A stretch of DNA of 18,908 bases from an uncultured bacterium (lineage in GTDB: Bacteria; RBG-13-66-14; B26-G2; WVWN01): NCBI GenBank assembly GCA_965602215.1, contig CBFCYS010000036.1, positions 1-18,908 of the forward strand, read 5' to 3'. This document shows, in pieces, positions 6,148 to 16,010 of the stretch. Each line of letters opens with the position of its first letter. Positions within the stretch are counted from its first letter, which is position 1. A model generated the notes under the pieces. It did not search any database, was not told the DNA's origin, and worked only from the letters and a program-made list of their open reading frames with translations. Both the position numbers and the translations under genes were made by a program.

Positions 6148-6165
6148 ATTCTTCCTCGGCTCGAG

Positions 6166-6408
6166 CTACGGCACCGGGTCGTAGCCGCCGGCGTTGAGGG
6201 GGTTGCAGCGGATTATACGCAGCGCCGCCAGCGCGGACCCGCGCCACGGCCCGTGCTTGCGGACGGCCTCCAGCGCGTACCTCGAGCACGACGGTTCAAA
6301 GCGGCAGCTCATCGGCATCAGCGGCCCCAGCGTAAACCGGTAGGTGCGGACGAAGGCGACGATTAGCGCCTGCGCGGCCGCGTCAATCGCTCTCTTTAGC
6401 TTTTCCAT
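6166..6408 (-). CDS. yidD: Membrane protein insertion efficiency factor YidD
   Basis: The 80-aa protein carries the conserved YidD motifs CRFEPSCSRYALEA ... RCNPLNAGGYDPVP. It overlaps the 3' end of rnpA, which is the usual arrangement. Confidence 0.85.
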   Translation of the reverse strand: MEKLKRAIDAAAQALIVAFVRTYRFTLGPLMPMSCRFEPSCSRYALEAVRKHGPWRGSALAALRIIRCNPLNAGGYDPVP

Positions 6409-6772
6409 ATTTGCCGCGGGTCAGCTCCGCCAGCGCCGCGACGACGTCTTTCTCCAGCGTCTTGAAATTTCGGTCGGATATCGGCGGCTTCGCCACCGCG
6501 ACGAACCAGAAGCCGTCCCGAAAGAGTTCCGGGTGGGTCCGGAAGATATCGCGGAGGCGCCGCTTCGCGCGGTTCCGCACCACCGCTTTCCCCACGCGCC
6601 GGCCGCATACTACGCCCAGCAACCTCCCCTCGCCCGAAACGGGAAGGCAGTGGATGACGAACGCATCCCCGGCGACGGTCCGGCCGTCGCGGATGGTGCG
6701 CGCGAAGTCCCGGCGGCGCCGCATACGCACGGCCCGCGGGAAGCGGAAGTCTCGTTCGTCGTTACCGGCCAA
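6383..6772 (-). CDS. rnpA: Ribonuclease P protein component RnpA. The start is uncertain: candidates are TTG 6772, GTG 6730 and ATG 6724.
   Basis: The basic motif RFPRAVRMRRRRDFARTIRDGRTV...VGKAVVRNRAKRRLRD matches the RnpA RNR/KRR signature. The ORF-track start at 7027 would run through rpmH and is rejected. The true start must lie after the rpmH stop at 6780. Confidence 0.75.
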   Translation of the reverse strand: MAGNDERDFRFPRAVRMRRRRDFARTIRDGRTVAGDAFVIHCLPVSGEGRLLGVVCGRRVGKAVVRNRAKRRLRDIFRTHPELFRDGFWFVAVAKPPISDRNFKTLEKDVVAALAELTRGKYGKAKESD

Positions 6773-6779
6773 GGCAGCG

Positions 6780-6917
6780 TCATACCGTAAGGCGTTTGCG
6801 CCCCTTCGCCCGGCGGCGGCGCATAACGCGACGGCCGCCCGGCTTGGCCATGCGGCTCCGGAAGCCGTGAACGCGGCCGCGGCGGCGCCGCGACGGTTGA
6901 TAAGTCCTCTTGGGCAA
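6780..6917 (-). CDS. rpmH: 50S ribosomal protein L34 (not in the ORF track; found by manual translation)
   Basis: The minus-strand reading starts with TTG at 6917-6915, 9 nt downstream of a perfect AAAGGAGG RBS. It translates to [45 protein letters not shown], ending with TGA at 6782-6780. This is the canonical L34 sequence and length. It sits immediately upstream of rnpA, as expected. Confidence 0.85.
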
Positions 6918-6945
6918 GCTTTACCTCCTTTTCGAACCGGCCTCG

Positions 6946-7950
6946 TTAGCTCAAAACCGCGTCTGCGGCGCGAATGACGTCGGCCGGCGAAAGGTCCACC
7001 ATACAACGGAAATGTTTCTCCGGACATTTGCGGCCGCCGTGAGCGCCGCAGGGCCGGCAGGGCAAACCCGCAACCTCGGCCACCGCCGACCGGCCGGCCA
7101 GCGGCGCGAACCCCTGCGCCGGGACCGTCGCGCCGAACACCGCCACGGTGGGCGTGTCGAACGCCGAGGCGACGTGCACCGGCGCGCTGTCGTTGGACAC
7201 CAGCAGCGCCGCTTCCGCCACGAGCGCGGCCAGCTCGCGCGCGGTCGTCTTCGCCGCCAGGTTGACGGCCGGCGCATCCATGGCCGCGGCCATCGCGGCC
7301 GCCTCGTCGCCTTCGCCCGGGCCCCCCGTTATTACGACGCCGTAGCCGCGCGCCGCCAGGTGGTCCGCCACCGCGGCGAACCCCTCGGCCGTCCAGCGCT
7401 TCGTGGGCCAGGCCGACGACGGCGATATAACGACGTACGGCTCGGCACCCGCGGCCTTGCGCGCCGCTTCCCGCTCGTCGTCGCCGAGGGCCAGCGTCGG
7501 CCGGGGGTCCGCGTCGCGGCTCCCCATCGCCTCCGCCAACGCCAGTATCCGCTCCGCTTCGTGCCGCTCGGGCGGCCTGGGGACGCGCTCCGTATACAAC
7601 AGCGACAGCGCGTTCTCGCGGTAGCCCACGCGCCGCGGCGCGCCCGACGTCCAGGCTATCACGCTCGAGCGCGCGGAGCGATGCGGCGACACGACGACGT
7701 CGAACTCCCTCGCGCGCACCTCTTTTATTGCCCTCCCCAGTTCGCCCGGGCCGCCGGCCCGTTTATCGTGCACTATTATTTCGTCCAACTCCGGCAGGCG
7801 CTCCAGAATGGGAGCCGTCTCCGGTATCACCAGCGCCGCCAGGTGCGAGCCGGGCCACATTCTATTTAAAGCCCGGAACAGCGGCGTCGTCAGTACGACG
7901 TCGCCCAGGAACGCCGTTTGGATGACGAGCACCCGGGGCCCGTCCTTCAC
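6946..7950 (-). CDS. Glycosyltransferase family 9 (ADP-heptose:LPS heptosyltransferase-like, WaaC/WaaF family)
   Basis: The GT9 hallmark N-terminus RVLVIQTAFLGDVVLTTPLFRAL and the C-terminal motifs LVSNDSAPVHVASAFDTPTVAVFG are present. The start is placed at GTG 7950-7948. This forms a GTGA overlap with the TGA stop (7949-7947) of the upstream paralog, which suggests translational coupling. The longer ORF-track start at 8154 would overlap the upstream gene by 200 nt and carries a non-GT9 N-terminal extension. Confidence 0.75.
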   Translation of the reverse strand: MKDGPRVLVIQTAFLGDVVLTTPLFRALNRMWPGSHLAALVIPETAPILERLPELDEIIVHDKRAGGPGELGRAIKEVRAREFDVVVSPHRSARSSVIAWTSGAPRRVGYRENALSLLYTERVPRPPERHEAERILALAEAMGSRDADPRPTLALGDDEREAARKAAGAEPYVVISPSSAWPTKRWTAEGFAAVADHLAARGYGVVITGGPGEGDEAAAMAAAMDAPAVNLAAKTTARELAALVAEAALLVSNDSAPVHVASAFDTPTVAVFGATVPAQGFAPLAGRSAVAEVAGLPCRPCGAHGGRKCPEKHFRCMVDLSPADVIRAADAVLS

Positions 7951-8945
7951 GCCGCCCCCAGCATCTCGCGCGCCGCCGCGGCTACCGCCGCGGGTTGGAT
8001 ATCCTCCATACAACGGCGCCGCGCGCGCCAGCAAGGCCGCCGGCCGTGTTTGCTGCACGGGCTGCACCGCGGCTCGAGGTATATCGTCCGGTCGCGCGCG
8101 CCCCACGGCGCGAAGCCGAACCGCGGCGACGTGGGCCCGAAGAGGGCCAGGCACGGCACGTCCACCAGCGGCGCGAGGTGGTTCATCGCCGAGTCGTTGC
8201 CGACGAGCAGTGCCGCGCCCCGGAGCGCTTCCGGAAGCTCGCCGACGGCGACCCGGCCCGCGAGGTTAAGCGCGCCGTCAATGCCCGCGGCCGCCTCCTC
8301 GCACAGCGGCCTTTCGGTTTCGTCCCCCAGGAGCAACAGGCCGTGTCCCTCGGCCGCGAGGGCCTGCGCCAGCTCGCGCCAGCGCGCGGCGGGCCAGGCC
8401 TTGGCGGCGTGGCGGGCCCCGGGCGCGAGCGCTACCCTACCGGGCGTCAGGCCGCGCTGCCGGAGCTTCTCGGCCGCGGCCTCGTCTTCCACCAGGCGGA
8501 ACGACCAGTCCGGCCCCGTTACCCCCCACTTCGCCGCGGTGCGCGCGTACAACTCGGGCACCCGGAGCGTCGGTTTGGGTAACAAGTCTATGCCGAGCGC
8601 CGCCAGGAGCCAGCGCCGGACGCCGTATTTGGGGTACCGGAATTTCTCGTACGCGCTGACGTGGCTCGCGACGTACCGCGCCAGCGGCACGCCGTGCCAG
8701 TCCAATATTATATCCGGCTTAATTTCATCGTTCAGCCGGCGTATCAGCTCGTTAATCGCGCCCTCGGCCTTTTCGCCCCGGCTCGGCATCGTCGCGACGA
8801 CGTCCACCGCGGGGTGGCGCGCCGCGAGCGGCGCCCACTCCTGCCGCGTTACGAACGCCAGCGACGCCCCCGTCGCCTTGGCCACCGGCCCCAGCGCCGG
8901 CAGCGTCAACAATACGTCGCCCAGCGACGAGAGCCTTATAATCAC
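7947..8945 (-). CDS. Glycosyltransferase family 9 (heptosyltransferase-like), second copy
   Basis: The ORF starts with GTG at 8945. The N-terminus IIRLSSLGDVLLTLPAL and the C-terminus LLVGNDSAMNHLAPLVDVPCLALFGPTSP fit the GT9 WaaC/WaaF-like pattern. It is in the same frame as mlaE and starts 11 codons after the mlaE stop. Confidence 0.75.
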   Translation of the reverse strand: MIIRLSSLGDVLLTLPALGPVAKATGASLAFVTRQEWAPLAARHPAVDVVATMPSRGEKAEGAINELIRRLNDEIKPDIILDWHGVPLARYVASHVSAYEKFRYPKYGVRRWLLAALGIDLLPKPTLRVPELYARTAAKWGVTGPDWSFRLVEDEAAAEKLRQRGLTPGRVALAPGARHAAKAWPAARWRELAQALAAEGHGLLLLGDETERPLCEEAAAGIDGALNLAGRVAVGELPEALRGAALLVGNDSAMNHLAPLVDVPCLALFGPTSPRFGFAPWGARDRTIYLEPRCSPCSKHGRRPCWRARRRCMEDIQPAAVAAAAREMLGAA

Positions 8946-10682: not shown

Positions 10683-11504
10683 TTAAAACACCTGCGGTAG
10701 CTCGATGCGCTTTGTTATGGTCTTGCCCGTGACGGAGGCGATTATAGGCACCTTACGCTTGAAGAGGTTGCGGTTGACAAGGCCGACGACGCGCCGCTGG
10801 AAGTCGGCGTCGAAGCCGCGCTCCAGCAGCTTCGCGGGCTTCTCGCCCTTCTCGACGAGGTAATATAAATACCGGTCGACCTGGAAGTAGGAGATGCCCA
10901 TCTCGCCCTCGTCCGTCTGCCCGGGCCAGAGGCCGGCGGAGGGCGCCTTTTGTATAATCCGCTCGGGGACGCCCAGCGCCTCCGCCAGGAGGTACACCTG
11001 CCCTTTATATAAATCCGCCAGCGGCGCGATGGAGCAGGCCGCGTCGCCGAAGAGCGTGAAGTAGCCCAGCAGGAGCTCGGTTTTGTTGCCGGTGCCCATG
11101 ACTATGGCCTTCGCTTCTTTGGACCGGTCGAAGAGGACGATCATACGCGCGCGGGCGCAGACGTTGCCGCGCCGCACGTCGTCCACCTCGCCCGCCTGCG
11201 CCAGGTACGCGTCCGTCATCGGCGTTATCGATATCTCTTTGAAATTAATGCCGAAGCGTTCGACGACGGCCTGCGCGTCGCCCTGGTCGCTCTGGTCGTA
11301 GTAGGGGAGCCAGACGCCGGTGACGTTCTCGGGGCCGAGGGCGGCGGCGGCCAGGCCGGCGGCGGTCGCGGAGTCCACGCCGCCGGATATTCCCAGCACG
11401 ACGCCCTCCAGGCCGGCGTCGTCGACGTGGCGTTTGATGAACCGCTCCAGCACGGGCCGGACGAGGGCGACGTCGATAGTTAGTTCCTTGGGGCACTTTT
11501 CCAT
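10683..11504 (-). CDS. nadE: NH3-dependent NAD+ synthetase NadE
   Basis: The PP-loop GISGGVDSA and the NadE-like blocks (WLPYYDQSDQ, MGTGNKTELLLGYFTLFGD) are present. The start is placed at ATG 11504, which has an AAGGAG RBS 6 nt upstream. The ORF-track start at 11579 adds 25 aa that are not conserved. Confidence 0.85.
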   Translation of the reverse strand: MEKCPKELTIDVALVRPVLERFIKRHVDDAGLEGVVLGISGGVDSATAAGLAAAALGPENVTGVWLPYYDQSDQGDAQAVVERFGINFKEISITPMTDAYLAQAGEVDDVRRGNVCARARMIVLFDRSKEAKAIVMGTGNKTELLLGYFTLFGDAACSIAPLADLYKGQVYLLAEALGVPERIIQKAPSAGLWPGQTDEGEMGISYFQVDRYLYYLVEKGEKPAKLLERGFDADFQRRVVGLVNRNLFKRKVPIIASVTGKTITKRIELPQVF

Positions 11505-11536
11505 AAACCTGCTCCTTGCGGCGACGCGGTATACAG

Positions 11537-11664
11537 CAAACCTTCTTCGATAAAATAACATATAGCGCAGGTGCTTCAAGGGGAAACTACGCCGACCCTC
11601 GCCGCCGCCGCGAAGGGTTCCCTCTGCCGCGCCGCCCTATCGGTAAGGGCTTCGGTGTTTTTTT
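11537..11664 (+). promoter_or_regulatory. Conserved upstream element, copy A. It has promoter-like boxes (CAAACCTTC, then 18 nt, then TATAGC), a roughly 60-nt GC-rich conserved core, and a hairpin with a T7 run that looks like a terminator.
   Basis: Copy B at 13786-13920 has the same architecture and spacing. The core cgccgccgcgaagggttccctc (11603-11624) is identical in both copies. GGGAA (11581-11585) and TTCCC (11618-11622) can form a stem enclosing the core. The hairpin gccct-N7-agggc (11634-11650) is followed by ttcggtgttttttt. Confidence 0.5.
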
Positions 11665-11753
11665 ATGTTTGAGTCGACGTTAATAAATCGTATGTTTAAG
11701 TGTAATTATCGCCGGCGGGTTAGGTTGCCGTTTTAAAATCGATGGGAGGTTTC

Positions 11754-13754
11754 GTGGGAGAATCGGAACGGAACCGAAAGTTAACGGCGCGGGACCGTTG
11801 GTTCGCGGCGGCTATGACGGTGGCGTTGGCCGCGCTGTACTTCGCGTTGCGGTCGCGGGATATCGGCTACGACGCGGTCGCGTATTGCTCGGTAGCCGAT
11901 ACGCCGTCGTTCGGTCGCTTATTCCACCAAAACCACCCCCTTCTTACGCCGGCGTTTTGGTGCGTAATGCGGGTGGTCCGCGGCCTTGGGTACGCCGGTT
12001 CGTCGCTGACGCCGCCGGCGGCGCTCTCGGCGTTGTGGGCGGGAGCGGCGTCAGGGGGTTTCTATCTCGTCCTCCGTCGCATCGGCGCGCGTCCGGCCTC
12101 CGCCGCGCTCGCGGTCGCGGCGGCGTCTTTTTCCGCGGCGTGGTGGTATTTCGCGGGGTTGGCCGAGCCGGTGGCGTGCATATTGTTCTTCATCGTCGGT
12201 GCGTTGTTCCTGGTGGCGCCGTGGCCGCCGTCGTGGCGTCGCGCTTTGGCCGTCGGCTGCTGGTTGGGCATCGGTACGTGGTTCCACGTTACGGTGGCCC
12301 TGTTTATCCCCGTCGCCGGGGTATTGGTCGCCGGGGGCCGCGGGGGGAGGTGGGGCCGGTGGGCGGCCTTGTTCGCGGCTTACGCCGTGACCGCTTCCGC
12401 GGCGTACGCGGTGATAAGCCAATGCGTTTTACGGCACGAAGGGCTCGCGGCTTTCTGGGATTGGATTAACTCCTATAGAAGTCATTCCGACGCGTACGGG
12501 TCTTTAACCGCAAGCCGGGTCCCCGACGGCCTTCTCCAGATCCTGGTCGCGTCCGTAGCGCCGCGGCGGGAGTTGCATTTAGAGTCCATTCACATGGGAT
12601 TCGGCACCGCCGCGTTTAAGTTCGCCCCGGCGGCGGCGTTGGTGGGGGTCGCGCTGGTTACGATCGGCGTCGCCGTACGCCGCCTGTGGCGGGAGCACCG
12701 GCGTTGGCTCGTAGCGGCCGCCGTGTGGTTCGTAAGCTACCAGCTGTTTTTTACGTGGTGGGAATCGGGCAACAACTCGTGGTGGGCCGGCGTAACGCTG
12801 CCGGTATGGTTGCTCTTCGCCCTCGCGGCGCCCGCACGTCGGGTTTTCCTAATCCCCTTTGGCGCGGTCGTGTTAGTAGCGGCCGGCGTCAACTTCGATC
12901 GCGTAATCCTACCCTCGAGCCGGCCCGGCCACAACGGCGCCGAGAACGCGGCCCGCGTGTTCATCGCGGCGAGCCGCCCCGGCGACAATCTTTGGGTACC
13001 CCACAGCGCCGTCGAGCTTTGGATAAGGCACCTTACCCGCGACGACCGGCCGTTGACCAAGACCGGCCTGGGGACTATCCCGGGGTCTTATACCGGTCGC
13101 GCCGTTTCGTTGGCCAGGCGCGGCCGGGCCAATGCGCCTGCGGGCGCCGACGTGTACTTGACTGATTACGAGCTCGACAACCCGCGCTTGGGTAAGGGCC
13201 GCCGGGCGAGAGCGGCCAAGAAGGCGTTTTTTAAAATCCTCCGGAACGCCGAACCGGTGACGTTGACGTATTTCTACGGCCGGCCGCGCGTGCTGTACCG
13301 CTACCGCGGCGCGGCCGAGTTCGGGTCGTTGAGGATTTACGAGGCGGAACGCGGGACGCGCGATAACGAATTTAGGGTGCTCGACCGGCCGGGGTGTGCC
13401 GAGCGGTTTAAGGTCAAGATACTAGAGAAGGGCCGATACGTAATCAGCGTTCAAGCGAGCGGTACGCCGGCGAGGGGCGAGTGGCCGGCGGCGTCCGTGG
13501 CCGTAGACGGTGACGTCCTGTCGACGTTCGCGGTCACGAGCGATTACTGGTGGTTTTACGATACGAGAACGACACTCGACCCCGGGAAGCACGAGATAAA
13601 GGTTATCTTGCGGAACGGCTTACCGGACCGCGCCACGGGCGAAACGCGCGTCCTGTACGTTAATCGGCTCGCGATATACCGCGACCCGGCGGAAGGCCGC
13701 GGCGCGAACCCGGCCGCGCCGGAGAAGGACGAGCGGAGGCCGAAGGAGAGATAG
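11754..13754 (+). CDS. Polytopic membrane protein, paralog 1. It has about 11 predicted TM helices and a C-terminal beta-sandwich domain of roughly 250 aa that resembles a carbohydrate-binding module (CBM6/CBM35-like). Its function is unknown. It may be a GT-C-type glycosyltransferase.
   Basis: The GTG at 11754 is preferred because it is preceded by a GGGAGG RBS and its N-terminus VGESERNRKLTARDRW aligns with the paralog start VEGVERRQSLAARDRW. An alternative ATG lies at 11742. The first-loop motif D-A...S-x-D-x-P..G..FHQNH..TP is conserved. The C-terminal block GRYVISVQASG...VAVDGDVLSTF...DYWWFYDT...GKHEIKVILRNG has a CBM-like VDG/aromatic pattern. Confidence 0.7.
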   Translation: MGESERNRKLTARDRWFAAAMTVALAALYFALRSRDIGYDAVAYCSVADTPSFGRLFHQNHPLLTPAFWCVMRVVRGLGYAGSSLTPPAALSALWAGAASGGFYLVLRRIGARPASAALAVAAASFSAAWWYFAGLAEPVACILFFIVGALFLVAPWPPSWRRALAVGCWLGIGTWFHVTVALFIPVAGVLVAGGRGGRWGRWAALFAAYAVTASAAYAVISQCVLRHEGLAAFWDWINSYRSHSDAYGSLTASRVPDGLLQILVASVAPRRELHLESIHMGFGTAAFKFAPAAALVGVALVTIGVAVRRLWREHRRWLVAAAVWFVSYQLFFTWWESGNNSWWAGVTLPVWLLFALAAPARRVFLIPFGAVVLVAAGVNFDRVILPSSRPGHNGAENAARVFIAASRPGDNLWVPHSAVELWIRHLTRDDRPLTKTGLGTIPGSYTGRAVSLARRGRANAPAGADVYLTDYELDNPRLGKGRRARAAKKAFFKILRNAEPVTLTYFYGRPRVLYRYRGAAEFGSLRIYEAERGTRDNEFRVLDRPGCAERFKVKILEKGRYVISVQASGTPARGEWPAASVAVDGDVLSTFAVTSDYWWFYDTRTTLDPGKHEIKVILRNGLPDRATGETRVLYVNRLAIYRDPAEGRGANPAAPEKDERRPKER

Positions 13755-13770
13755 CCGCGCCCGTACGCGG

Positions 13771-13785
13771 CGACGGGGTACGTCG
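13771..13785 (+). terminator. Hairpin immediately downstream of paralog 1 (cgacg-gggta-cgtcg). It has no U-tract and abuts the promoter-like box of element copy B.
   Basis: It is a perfect 5-bp inverted repeat with a 5-nt loop, 17 nt after the TAG stop. Confidence 0.3.
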
Positions 13786-13920
13786 GAAACCTTCCCCGGC
13801 AAAGTAACTTATAGCAGGGGCACTTTAAGGGAAAACGCGCCGGCCCCCGCCGCCGCGAAGGGTTCCCTCCCTTGCGTTACGCGGGCCGTAGAATCCCGGC
13901 CCCCTATTTTGTATTTAATT
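13786..13920 (+). promoter_or_regulatory. Conserved upstream element, copy B. It has GAAACCTTC, then 18 nt, then TATAGC, followed by the conserved core and then a hairpin gggccg-N8-cggccc with a T-rich tail.
   Basis: It aligns with copy A. The core cgccgccgcgaagggttccctc (13849-13870) is identical. GGGAA and TTCCC flank it in the same way. The 6-bp perfect stem at 13883-13902 is followed by cctattttgtatttaattt. Confidence 0.5.
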
Positions 13921-14042
13921 TGGCGCCGATGTGTTGTATAGTAATGTCCTTATTCTCGGCGGTAGCTTCGGTCGGCCGCCGAGGCGGCGTTTGGGGCCGC
14001 GCTTAGGACAGGCGGCTATTATAAGGATCAGGAGGAAGCTTC

Positions 14043-16010
14043 GTGGAAGGAGTAGAACGGAGGCAATCGCTGGCGGCGCGGGACCGTTGGGTGGCGGTCT
14101 TCGTGGCGGTAGGCTTGGTCGTATTATATTACGCTTTCAGAACGCATTATCACCACTGCGACGCCATTAAGACGGCGACGAGCATAGACGCGCCGGAAAT
14201 AGGGATTTTTTTACACCAGAATCACCTCGCATTTACTCCCATAATTTGGCTTCTCGTAAAAGGCTTGCGCGCCCTCGGCTGGGGCGGTTCGCCGTTGGCC
14301 GTGGCCGCGGCCGCATCGTCTATTTTCACGGGCGCCGCCGCGGGCGGGTTCTTCCTCTTCCTGCGGCGAATCGGCGTAACCTTCCGGACGGCTTTACTCG
14401 CGTTGGGCGCCGCGACGGCTTCGGCGGCGTGGTGGTTTTACGCCGGGGGGGCGGAGCAACGCTCGGCAATCCCGTTCATTATCGTGGGGGCGTTGCTGCT
14501 GTTGGCGACGCCGGCGCGCCGATGGTATTCGGCGGCGGCGGTTGCGGTTTGGCTTGCGGTAGGAGCGTGGTTTCATATTTCGATAACGCTTTTCTTCCCC
14601 GTCGCCGCCATATTACTGGCTCAGAACAAGGAAGGGCGATGGTTGCGTTTATCGGTTTTCGGGGCGATTTACGCCGTCCTGGCCTTCGTACCGTACGTGT
14701 TTGTCTTTCGGGTATTTTATCACGGTACCCAGGGCGAAACATTTTATAAGTGGATAACCTTCCTGCATTGGTGGGGAGGGTGGGGACAACTCGATTGGAT
14801 TAGGTTTTGGGAAGGCGCGCTGCGTTTGATGGCGGCCGCGGTCGCGCCGGGGAACGGTTTAAATTGCTTGTTGACCGGCATTAGCCGGGCCGAATTCTTA
14901 CCGCGGCTTGGGCCGGGGGTCGTATTTTTAGCGGCGGTGATAGCGGTCATCGCCGTCCGGGGGAAGCGTTTGTGGCGGGAAAAGAGGTGGTGGCTCGCCG
15001 CGGGGATAACCTGGTTCCTCGTTTACCATATCTTCTTTTCGTGGTGGGCGCCCCAGAACGCGGAATGGTGGGTCGCGACGATAATGCCGTTGTGGATACT
15101 ATTCGGTTTAGCGGCGCCGCCGCGTCTCTCTTTCGTCGTGCCGGCCGCGGCGTTAATATTGTGCGTGGCCGGGGTTAATTTCACTCGTTTAATACTACCT
15201 ACCAGCCACCCGGGCGTAGACCCGGCCGAGCGGACGGCCCGCGCAATCGCGGCCGCGACGGAGCCGGGAGACGTTATTTTAATTTCGCGTATGCGCGTGA
15301 AGATCTGGATCGACAACCAGACGAAGCGCACCCGGGTAGTTATGGGTTCCGGCGGCCATAGTGACCTCAAAAAAGTCAAAAAGTTCATTAGGAAATATAC
15401 CCGCCCCTCGCCGGAATTTAAGGGCGGTCGCGGCAATGCTTTCCTCACGGATTACGAAATGGACAACTGGGACCTGGACCCGGCGGCCGAGGGAGATCAA
15501 GTACGGGCGTCGCTGTTCCGTGTCATACGTAACGCCGAGCCGGTGGCGTTGGTACCGTTCAACGGATGGCCGAGGGTCTTGTACCGCTGTCGCGGGAAGG
15601 CCAAGCTTGAATCGCTGAGGATTTACGAAGCGAAGCGCGGGACGCGTAAAGGGGGCTTTAAACTTCTTCGAGAGGCAGGAGAGGCTAAGGTGTTTGCAAT
15701 CAAAGTGCCGGAGGAGGGCCGGTACGTAATCTGCTTACAGGCTCGCGGTACGCAGGCGAAGGGCGAATGGCCCGCCGTACGCGTCGTCGTGGACGGGAAA
15801 GTGTTATCGAAGTTCGACGTCAAGACGCATTACTGGTGGTTTTACGATACTACGGCCCGACTCGGCGCCGGTAAGCACAAGGTCAAGGTCTTTTTACGCA
15901 ACGGCTGGCGGGACCCCGCCACGGGCGAGGAGCGCTTCCTGTATCTGAACCGGCTTATCATATACCGCGACCCGGCGGAAGGCCGCGGCGAGGGAGAGCC
16001 GCCCGGCTAA
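14043..16010 (+). CDS. Polytopic membrane protein, paralog 2. It has the same architecture as paralog 1. Identity is about 45% in the TM region and higher in the C-terminal domain. It has a noticeably lower GC content and is Lys-rich.
   Basis: The GTG start at 14043 lies 6 nt after an AGGAGGA RBS. The N-terminal, loop-1 (HQNH), WW-rich TM core and C-terminal (YWWFYDT, LRNG, IYRDPAEGRG) motifs are shared with paralog 1. Confidence 0.7.
   Translation: MEGVERRQSLAARDRWVAVFVAVGLVVLYYAFRTHYHHCDAIKTATSIDAPEIGIFLHQNHLAFTPIIWLLVKGLRALGWGGSPLAVAAAASSIFTGAAAGGFFLFLRRIGVTFRTALLALGAATASAAWWFYAGGAEQRSAIPFIIVGALLLLATPARRWYSAAAVAVWLAVGAWFHISITLFFPVAAILLAQNKEGRWLRLSVFGAIYAVLAFVPYVFVFRVFYHGTQGETFYKWITFLHWWGGWGQLDWIRFWEGALRLMAAAVAPGNGLNCLLTGISRAEFLPRLGPGVVFLAAVIAVIAVRGKRLWREKRWWLAAGITWFLVYHIFFSWWAPQNAEWWVATIMPLWILFGLAAPPRLSFVVPAAALILCVAGVNFTRLILPTSHPGVDPAERTARAIAAATEPGDVILISRMRVKIWIDNQTKRTRVVMGSGGHSDLKKVKKFIRKYTRPSPEFKGGRGNAFLTDYEMDNWDLDPAAEGDQVRASLFRVIRNAEPVALVPFNGWPRVLYRCRGKAKLESLRIYEAKRGTRKGGFKLLREAGEAKVFAIKVPEEGRYVICLQARGTQAKGEWPAVRVVVDGKVLSKFDVKTHYWWFYDTTARLGAGKHKVKVFLRNGWRDPATGEERFLYLNRLIIYRDPAEGRGEGEPPG

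What the first reader, a model, noticed from the sequence alone, without database searches (positions are those of the whole stretch)
11754..16010. Tandem, strongly diverged pair of about 660-aa polytopic membrane proteins with a CBM-like C-terminal domain, and a GC-content asymmetry between the copies
Both proteins have about 11 TM helices and a conserved first-loop signature D-A..S-x-[DA]-x-P..G..[FL]HQNH...TP. They share Trp-rich helices (SAAWW[YF][FY]AG, WFH, F[TS]WW). A roughly 250-aa soluble tail has the pattern GRYVI.[VL]QA.G....GEWPA..V.VDG.VLS.F.V....YWWFYDT......GKH.[IV]KV.LRNG......GE.R.LY[VL]NRL.IYRDPAEGRG. The VDG and aromatic pattern recalls CBM6/CBM35-type beta-sandwich carbohydrate-binding modules. 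A GT-C-like membrane domain combined with a CBM-like domain suggests an envelope polysaccharide or glycolipid glycosyltransferase, but I cannot place the family from sequence alone. Paralog 2 is markedly less GC-rich than paralog 1 and the rest of the window (about 55-58% versus about 70%). It also uses Lys where paralog 1 uses Arg (for example KKVKKFIRKYTRPSPEFKGG). This points to different origins or evolutionary histories for the two copies.
Basis: partly seen in the sequence, partly recalled or inferred. Interest (0 to 1): 0.6.

Follow-up and report, generated by a model that had tools for sequence, protein, structure and literature searches.

The report
Paired membrane glycosyltransferases with sugar-binding tails
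Two neighbouring, long-diverged genes from an uncultivated bacterium encode membrane enzymes of the well-known GT-C glycosyltransferase fold, each ending in a sugar-binding module, which most likely decorate a cell-envelope polysaccharide; this is an unannotated branch of a known kind of enzyme, not a new kind.

Summary
Two intact genes encode proteins that are 44% identical over 655 aa: par1 at 11754/11742-13754 and par2 at 14043-16010. Each has 11 predicted TM helices, N-terminus in and C-terminus out.

- Neither membrane domain hits Pfam directly. A family profile finds 1,356 distant relatives, and 33 of 86 scanned are PMT_2 and 26 of 86 TMEM260-like.
- The first-loop Asp (D44) and H62/H65 are conserved across those relatives.

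The GT-C plus CBM architecture has precedents: EmbCAB, AftD and GT136 ORF12.

The GC asymmetry is real but smaller than stated. GC is 59.3% for par2 and 65.6% for par1. GC3 is 0.70 and 0.80, against mostly 0.84-0.93 in the flanking genes.

"Different origins" is not supported. Par2 orthologues elsewhere keep GC3 near 0.71-0.73. Both copies fall in one lineage-restricted clade tied to the nadE-polA slot.

Verdict: a new member of a known kind, of modest interest.

The parts
11754..13754 (+). par1 gene. 666 aa from the GTG at 11754; the alternative ATG at 11742 gives 670 aa, and that numbering is used in this report.
   Evidence: ORF. Public gene calls give 666 aa. GGAGG at 11746-11750. 99% identical to P0001, with orthologues at 67-78% identity.
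11742..12908 (+). par1 GT-C membrane domain, aa 1-389, with 11 TM helices.
11850..12008 (+). par1 first periplasmic loop (EL1, aa 37-89). It carries the candidate catalytic Asp44 (codon 11871-11873) and the H62-Q-N-H65 motif.
   Evidence: D44 is invariant in the family. It is Asp in 107 and Asn in 13 of 136 distant GT-C-like relatives; H65 is conserved in 131 and H62 in 100.
12909..13304 (+). par1 periplasmic alpha/beta domain (aa 390-521). The fold is not assigned. Conserved G414-D415, W427 and LTDYELDN (473-480).
   Evidence: AF2 secondary structure. Conservation. No PDB match ranked above the CBM hits.
13332..13691 (+). par1 C-terminal beta-sandwich carbohydrate-binding module (aa 531-650).
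14043..16010 (+). par2 gene, 655 aa, GTG start with AGGAGG 7 nt upstream. Candidate catalytic Asp40 is at codon 14160-14162.
   Evidence: ORF. Orthologues at 75% (P0021) and 68% (P0016) identity. All family-invariant residues are retained.
15618..15977 (+). par2 C-terminal carbohydrate-binding module (aa 526-645).
   Evidence: Pfam CBM60, 29.5 bits, above the gathering score of 28.2, plus a weak CBM_35 hit. 62% identical to the par1 module.
11507..11644 (+). Conserved noncoding element upstream of par1, between the likely nadE start (ATG at 11504, minus strand) and par1.
   Evidence: Direct repeat with 13759-13889. nhmmer finds 4 copies, in the window and in L001. No Rfam match.
13759..13889 (+). 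Second copy of the conserved noncoding element, upstream of par2.
   Evidence: 67-77% identical to the first copy depending on the span aligned, against 56% nucleotide identity for the aligned coding regions.

Best explanation
Par1 and par2 are two old paralogues of a lineage-restricted branch of the GT-C superfamily of membrane glycosyltransferases.

Shown:
- Each protein has 11 TM helices. The N-terminus is cytoplasmic, and the long first loop, the fourth loop and the whole 280-aa C-terminal region face the periplasm.
- The fold is GT-C.
- The C-terminus is a CBM6/35/36/60-type beta-sandwich.
- A single conserved Asp (D44 in par1, D40 in par2) and an H-x-x-H motif lie in the first periplasmic loop, where GT-C enzymes carry their catalytic acid.

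Inferred:
- The enzymes take a sugar from a polyprenyl-phosphate-linked donor at the periplasmic face of the inner membrane.
- They transfer it to an envelope glycan, such as LPS core or O-chain or a capsule-like polymer.
- The C-terminal module holds that glycan in place, as in EmbC, AftD and the GT136 enzyme ORF12.
- The membrane and alpha/beta domains differ sharply between the paralogue clades (40% versus 73% for orthologues), while the CBM is equally similar in all comparisons (about 62%). The two enzymes therefore probably recognise the same polymer but catalyse different transfers, through a different donor or a different acceptor position.

The pair arose by duplication within the lineage at the nadE-polA slot. 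The lower GC3 of par2 is the family-typical value, not a mark of recent import.
For: - Sequence: a profile of the TM domain finds 1,356 proteins at E <= 1e-3 and 481 at E <= 1e-10. Of 86 scanned, 33 hit PMT_2 and 26 hit TMEM260-like, and no non-glycosyltransferase family recurs.
- Active-site candidates: D44, H62, H65, E142 and H182 are conserved across 136 distant relatives. All map to periplasmic loops or helix ends.
- Precedent for GT-C plus C-terminal CBM binding the acceptor glycan: ORF12/GT136, with 11 TM helices and a CBM at 503-652, plus EmbA/B/C and AftD (PMC11127046).
- Envelope context: two GT9 heptosyltransferases and mlaE lie nearby in the window. An older clade of the family sits three genes upstream of kdsA-kdsD-lptC in at least five genomes.
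- Duplication in situ: the nadE|FAM(|FAM)|polA synteny appears in L001, L002, L006 and L018, with partial flanks in L007 and L013. Clade supports are 100, 100 and 85%.
Against: - Par1 and par2 give no direct Pfam or NCBIfam hit for the membrane domain and no sequence-level PDB hit. Assignment rests on a predicted structure from a shallow 22-sequence alignment and on transitive homology.
- No gene for a polyprenyl-phosphate sugar synthase or a flippase lies in the window or in the related loci examined. The donor is therefore unknown and the three-component logic of known systems is not seen locally.
- The neighbouring LPS genes are on the opposite strand, in a conserved housekeeping block, so the link to LPS is weak.
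- The Ca2+ and ligand-binding residues of CBM36 and CBM60 could not be checked.
- The equal CBM identity across paralogues and orthologues could also come from saturation or gene conversion, not from a shared ligand.
Confidence: 0.7

Rival explanations
1. They are protein O-glycosyltransferases of the PMT/TMEM260 kind. They would transfer a sugar from a polyprenyl-phosphate donor to Ser/Thr of secreted or envelope proteins, not to a polysaccharide. The C-terminal module would then bind an already glycosylated substrate or the cell wall.
Confidence: 0.12
2. They are ArnT-like lipid A or LPS-core modifying enzymes that add a single sugar to the lipid A or inner-core region.
Against: The ArnT matched here (541 aa) has no CBM. 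A beta-sandwich CBM of the CBM6/35/36 type suggests recognition of a glycan chain, not lipid A. No arnC-like or arnE/F-like donor genes are nearby. The gene proximity is on the opposite strand or several genes away.
Confidence: 0.1
3. Par2 was acquired laterally from a lower-GC donor and inserted next to a resident par1.
For: Par2 has lower GC (59.3% versus 65.6%), lower GC3 (0.70 versus 0.80) and twice the Lys share of par1. The GC3 difference persists at codons for identical amino acids (p = 0.03). The paralogue content and order of the nadE-polA slot vary between genomes.
Against: Par2-type orthologues in L001 and L002 have the same GC3 (0.73 and 0.71), and the par1-type gene in L001 is also low at 0.71. 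Family members at other loci are likewise below most of their neighbours. All 24 close homologues among 5.8 billion proteins come from the same small group of uncultivated bacteria. Par1 and par2 clades sit together in a polA-linked clade (85% bootstrap). Both genes are preceded by the same conserved upstream element.
Confidence: 0.08
4. They are non-catalytic GT-C-fold proteins, comparable to PIG-U/GAB1 in GPI transamidase. They would act as membrane scaffolds or glycan sensors with a lectin domain.
Against: The first-loop Asp and several polar periplasmic residues are conserved across more than 100 distant relatives. That pattern is expected of an active site.
Confidence: 0.04

Closest known systems
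ORF12 of Citrobacter youngae O1, founding member of CAZy GT136 (PMC11127046)
   Same: The architecture is the same as described in the paper: about 650 aa, 11 TM helices, a small helical domain after TM1 carrying catalytic acidic residues, and a beta-rich C-terminal CBM after TM11 that binds the acceptor polysaccharide. It acts in the periplasm with a polyprenyl-phosphate sugar donor.
   Different: ORF12 sits in an O-antigen locus with its donor synthase, a MATE flippase and an epimerase; no such partners flank par1 and par2. Par1 and par2 also have an extra alpha/beta domain of about 130 aa between TM11 and the CBM.
Mycobacterial arabinosyltransferases EmbC/EmbA/EmbB and AftD (GT-C with CBMs)
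   Different: Emb and AftD proteins are much larger (about 1,100-1,400 aa) with more TM helices and several CBMs. There is no detectable sequence similarity. They occur in Actinobacteria and act on a cell-wall arabinan chemistry that has no evident counterpart here.
Pfam PMT_2 (PF13231) and TMEM260-like (PF11028) proteins: ArnT/PMT-type GT-C enzymes (CAZy GT83/GT39-like)
   Different: Par1 and par2 themselves do not match either model, even at E <= 1. The first-loop motif is D-x17-H-Q-N-H, or H-P-H-H in the wider group, not the PMT DE motif (the latter from established knowledge). They carry a C-terminal CBM where eukaryotic PMTs have MIR domains.
CBM36 / CBM60 / CBM35 / CBM6 beta-jelly-roll carbohydrate-binding modules
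   Different: Sequence identity is only 11-22%. The module is attached to a biosynthetic membrane enzyme rather than a secreted glycoside hydrolase. The calcium and ligand residues were not verified, so ligand specificity is unknown; xylan is unlikely in this context.

Membership tests
GT-C glycosyltransferase superfamily (fold class) | Polytopic membrane domain of 7-13 TM helices with the conserved GT-C helix arrangement | tested here: met
GT-C glycosyltransferase superfamily (fold class) | Long first extracytoplasmic loop with juxtamembrane helices and a conserved acidic catalytic residue | tested here: met
   EL1 spans aa 37-89 and contains short helices. D44 is invariant in the family and is Asp in 107 of 136 distant relatives. 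Its catalytic role was not tested experimentally.
GT-C glycosyltransferase superfamily (fold class) | Uses a polyprenyl-phosphate-linked or polyprenyl-diphosphate-linked sugar donor on the extracytoplasmic face | not testable with these tools
   Only topology supports this: the conserved polar residues and the C-terminal domains are predicted to be periplasmic. No donor-synthesis genes lie nearby.
Pfam PMT_2 (PF13231) / CAZy GT39-GT83-like | Score above the Pfam gathering threshold for PF13231 | tested here: not met
   Neither par1 nor par2 hits the model at E <= 1. Only distant relatives match: 33 of 86 at E <= 1e-3, and some above the gathering score, such as P0032 at 36.6 bits.
CAZy GT136 (C. 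youngae ORF12) | Significant sequence similarity to ORF12 | not tested
   The ORF12 sequence could not be obtained with the tools. Only the architecture could be compared from the paper's description.
CBM60 (PF16841) | Score above the Pfam gathering threshold (28.2 bits) | tested here: inconclusive
   Par2 scores 29.5 bits (above) and par1 25.4 bits (below). 15 of the 24 homologues carry a precomputed PF16841 hit.
CBM60 / CBM36 | Calcium-coordinating residues that mediate ligand binding | not tested
CBM6/35/36-type beta-jelly-roll fold | Beta-sandwich of about 100-130 aa that superposes on solved CBMs | tested here: met

The most novel reading that the evidence does not exclude
The membrane domain may define a new CAZy-level GT-C family, with a D-x(17)-H-[PQ]-[HN]-H first-loop signature. 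It has more than 1,300 unannotated bacterial members, and no member has been characterised. In this candidate-phylum branch it would be fused to a CBM36/60-like module. The co-resident paralogues, which share a CBM but differ in their catalytic domains, would work as a heteromeric or sequential pair on one envelope polysaccharide, as Pmt1-Pmt2 or EmbA-EmbB do. Each cassette would be driven by its own copy of a conserved ~130-nt upstream control element, and these repeats may also have helped the two genes swap order between related genomes.
Probability: 0.2. Interest if true: 0.5.

Novelty: new member of a known kind. Interest (0 to 1): 0.3.

Why it matters
It gives a function-level annotation, periplasmic GT-C glycosyltransferase with a glycan-binding module, to genes that public records call "hypothetical" or only "carbohydrate-binding domain-containing". 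It also links them to a group of more than 1,300 poorly annotated membrane proteins. For uncultivated bacteria labelled Zixibacteria or Coatesbacteria, it points to periplasmic, lipid-carrier-dependent decoration of an envelope glycan by two or three paralogous enzymes. It adds another case of the GT-C plus CBM design known from Emb, AftD and GT136. It does not reveal a new mechanism.

Tried and rejected
- Direct family assignment failed. Pfam and NCBIfam give nothing for the membrane domain, and PDB sequence searches with profiles or single sequences give nothing usable.
- AFDB Foldseek was not available.
- The conserved upstream element was tested as an RNA. There is no Rfam match at gathering or relaxed thresholds. 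RNAalifold on the four copies gives a covariation term of only -0.44 kcal/mol. There is no conserved small ORF, no consensus sigma-70 promoter or terminator above shuffled expectation, and no copies outside the window and L001 among 18 loci.
- Transporter and non-glycosyltransferase readings were rejected, because no such family recurs among the relatives or among the structural hits.
- Recent lateral acquisition of par2 was rejected on orthologue GC3 and phylogeny.
- The literature on CBM60 and CBM36 calcium-site residues was not retrievable at residue level, and papers mentioning Coatesbacteria say nothing about these genes.
Full report

The window holds two intact, same-strand ORFs at the stated place.
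- Par1 runs 11742..13754 and is 670 aa from the ATG. Public gene calls on this very contig start at the GTG at 11754, giving 666 aa, and a GGAGG lies at 11746-11750.
- Par2 runs 14043..16010 and is 655 aa. Its GTG start is preceded by AGGAGG at a 7-nt spacing.

BLASTP gives 44% identity over 655 residues, E 4e-165.

The soluble tail is about 280 aa and consists of two domains, not one.

**2. Composition**

| Region | GC | GC3 | K/(K+R) |
|---|---|---|---|
| par1 | 65.6% | 0.80 | 0.17 |
| par2 | 59.3% | 0.70 | 0.34 |
| whole window | 65.7% | – | – |
| flanking genes | – | 0.84-0.93 (rnpA 0.71) | – |

At 260 aligned codons that encode the same amino acid in both proteins, GC3 is 0.82 versus 0.75 (sign test p = 0.03).

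The asymmetry is therefore real.

**3. What the proteins are**

Pfam finds only the C-terminal module. CBM60 (PF16841) scores 29.5 bits in par2, above the gathering score of 28.2, and 25.4 bits in par1. Par2 also has a weak CBM_35 match. NCBIfam finds nothing.

- The top 19 hits are all GT-C-fold membrane proteins: 16 glycosyltransferases and the GPI-transamidase subunits PIG-U and GAB1.

Foldseek agrees independently, with AftD, ArnT, OST, DPY19, ALG12, Pmt4, AftB and PglB. A separate model of the C-terminal 279 residues (pLDDT 83.6) again gives CBM36, CBM35 and CBM6. The alpha/beta domain between TM11 and the CBM (aa about 390-521) stays unassigned.

**4. Sequence-level support**

A word-indexed search of 5.8 billion proteins finds only 24 relatives. 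All but one (a 378-aa fragment) are 614-681 aa with the same architecture.

An exhaustive profile search with the membrane domain alone finds far more: 1,356 proteins at E <= 1e-3 and 481 at E <= 1e-10, mostly 500-600 aa.
- Of 86 scanned, 33 match Pfam PMT_2 and 26 match TMEM260-like.
- No other family recurs.

The membrane domain is therefore a divergent, unmodelled branch of the PMT_2/ArnT-like part of the GT-C superfamily.

Aligning 136 distant relatives to the family profile shows which residues are kept:

| Residue (par1 numbering) | Conserved in |
|---|---|
| D44 | 107 Asp + 13 Asn |
| H62 | 100 |
| H65 | 131 |
| W135 | 134 |
| E142 | 94 |
| H182 | 106 |
| Y222 | 125 |
| W241 | 123 |
| W340 | 120 |

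**5. Topology**

The model's helices and the distribution of Arg/Lys give 11 TM helices. The N-terminus and the loops RRIGAR, WRR, GGRGGRWGR, RRLWREHRRW and APARR are cytoplasmic. EL1 (37-89), the 231-286 loop and the whole C-terminal region are periplasmic.

All the conserved polar residues listed above lie on the periplasmic side. D44 sits a few residues after TM1, where GT-C enzymes carry their catalytic acid (established knowledge of ArnT, PglB and PMT; see also PMC11127046).

**6. Mechanism proposed**

The shown facts are the fold, the topology, the conserved first-loop Asp and the CBM fold.

The inferred steps are as follows.
- A polyprenyl-phosphate sugar is used at the periplasmic face.
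- The sugar goes to an envelope glycan that the C-terminal module holds.

This is how the CBMs of EmbC, AftD and the GT136 enzyme ORF12 are reported to work. ORF12 has the same plan of 11 TM helices, a helical EL1 domain and a C-terminal CBM.

Domain identities give a further clue.

| Domain | par1 vs par2 | Orthologues |
|---|---|---|
| Membrane domain | 40% | 73% |
| Alpha/beta domain | 34% | 62-66% |
| CBM | 62% | about 62% |

The CBM is about 62% identical in every paralogue and orthologue comparison. The simplest reading is that the paralogues share a glycan ligand but perform different transfers. Saturation or gene conversion are alternative explanations.

**7. Genomic context and evolution**

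The window is a conserved housekeeping block. On the minus strand it reads SPFH/Band-7 gene, mnmE, jag, yidC, rnpA, two GT9 heptosyltransferases, mlaE, an rsmI-like gene and nadE. Par1, par2 and polA follow on the plus strand.

The same nadE|family|polA arrangement recurs in related metagenome-assembled genomes. Their NCBI records label them Candidatus Zixiibacteriota, Candidatus Coatesbacteria or "bacterium".

The slot's content varies between genomes.
- L006 and L018 have one copy.
- The window, L001 and L002 have two copies, drawn from different clades.
- In L001 the order is reversed, with the par2-type gene first and the par1-type gene second.

Neighbour-joining with 100 bootstraps gives these supports.
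- Par1 clade: 100%.
- Par2 clade: 100%.
- The two extended clades: 95% and 97%.
- All polA-linked copies together: 85%.

An older clade sits in a different conserved context, UDG|family|171-aa ORF|M3-like peptidase|kdsA|kdsD|lptC, in at least five genomes.

GC3 of family genes is lower than most neighbours elsewhere too.
- Par2-type genes: 0.73 in L001 and 0.71 in L002.
- The par1-type gene in L001: 0.71.
- P0024: 0.69, against 0.73-0.81 for its neighbours.
- P0027: 0.72, mid-range among its neighbours.

Low GC3 is therefore an old and persistent family trait. The window's par1 is the more ameliorated copy, and nothing suggests a separate foreign origin for par2.

**8. Upstream element**

Each paralogue is preceded by a conserved noncoding element of about 130 nt, at 11507-11644 and 13759-13889. 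The two copies are 77% identical over 107 nt by BLAST, and one 23-nt stretch is identical.

Two more copies lie upstream of the two genes in L001. The copies are 57-73% identical, whereas the aligned coding regions are only 56% identical at the nucleotide level.

Similarity follows position and genome, not which gene type lies downstream.

No function could be shown.
- Rfam gives no match.
- Covariation is negligible.
- There is no conserved ORF.
- No consensus promoter or terminator rises above shuffled expectation.

It may be a regulator-binding region or a leader that travelled with the duplicated cassette.

**9. Comparison with known systems, and novelty**

The design of a GT-C membrane domain plus a periplasmic CBM is established in EmbA/B/C, AftD and GT136. 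Tandem diverged GT-C paralogues are also known, as in embCAB.

Membership in PMT_2 was tested and not met for par1 and par2 themselves. Membership in GT136 could not be tested. Membership of the GT-C fold class and of the CBM6/35/36 fold is met.

The finding is a new, lineage-restricted and so far unannotated member of a known kind. I found no mention of it in the held literature.

**10. Verdict**

The functional interpretation is supported at the level of fold and architecture, but the donor and acceptor remain unknown. The "different origins" inference is not supported. Interest is modest.

Noticed in passing
window 11507-11644 and 13759-13889; L001 7098-7235 and 9719-9856: A conserved noncoding element of about 130 nt precedes each paralogue in two related genomes. 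It is better conserved (57-73% between copies, with a 23-nt identical core) than the aligned coding DNA (56%). Similarity tracks slot and genome, not downstream gene type. There is no Rfam hit, negligible covariation and no conserved ORF.
   Followed up: partly
window 11742-16010 versus L001 7382-11974: Between the same flanks (nadE and polA) the two paralogue types are in opposite order in the two genomes: par1-type then par2-type here, par2-type then par1-type in L001. Other relatives have a single copy or a different clade combination in this slot, so the slot is rearrangement-prone.
   Followed up: partly
window 13332-13691 and 15618-15977: The CBM domains are about 62% identical in every paralogue and orthologue comparison, while the membrane domains separate cleanly (40% paralogue, 73% orthologue). 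The CBM carries no clade signal, which could reflect a shared ligand, saturation or gene conversion.
   Followed up: partly
L015 1093-7679; L008, L009, L011, L012, L014: A third, older clade of the family lies in a conserved block: UDG | family gene | 171-aa ORF without Pfam match | M3-like peptidase | kdsA | kdsD | lptC. At least five genomes carry it through to lptC, which is a weak link to LPS/Kdo biosynthesis.
   Followed up: partly
L002 5993-6871 and 14634-17351: In a related genome, two low-GC genes flank the slot: a DUF3800 gene at 44.5% GC and a 905-aa gene without Pfam match at 44% GC. The locus overall is 62% GC, so these look like recent insertions.
   Followed up: no
window 6148-7027 (minus strand): The rnpA ORF as listed (214 aa) is much longer than the 129-aa rnpA of L001. 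L001 also has an 80-aa yidD between yidC and rnpA. The real rnpA start here is probably further downstream, and a yidD is expected in 6148-6382.
   Followed up: no
window 10683-11579 (minus strand): The longest nadE ORF starts at a TTG at 11579, but the Pfam match begins at residue 44. Related loci-273 aa. The likely start is the ATG at 11504, which leaves 11505-11741 intergenic.
   Followed up: partly
window 6946-8945 (minus strand): Two adjacent GT9 heptosyltransferase genes appear to overlap by about 200 nt as longest ORFs (6946-8154 and 7947-8945). In L001 the equivalents overlap by only 4 nt, so the downstream gene's (6946-8154) start is probably over-extended.
   Followed up: no
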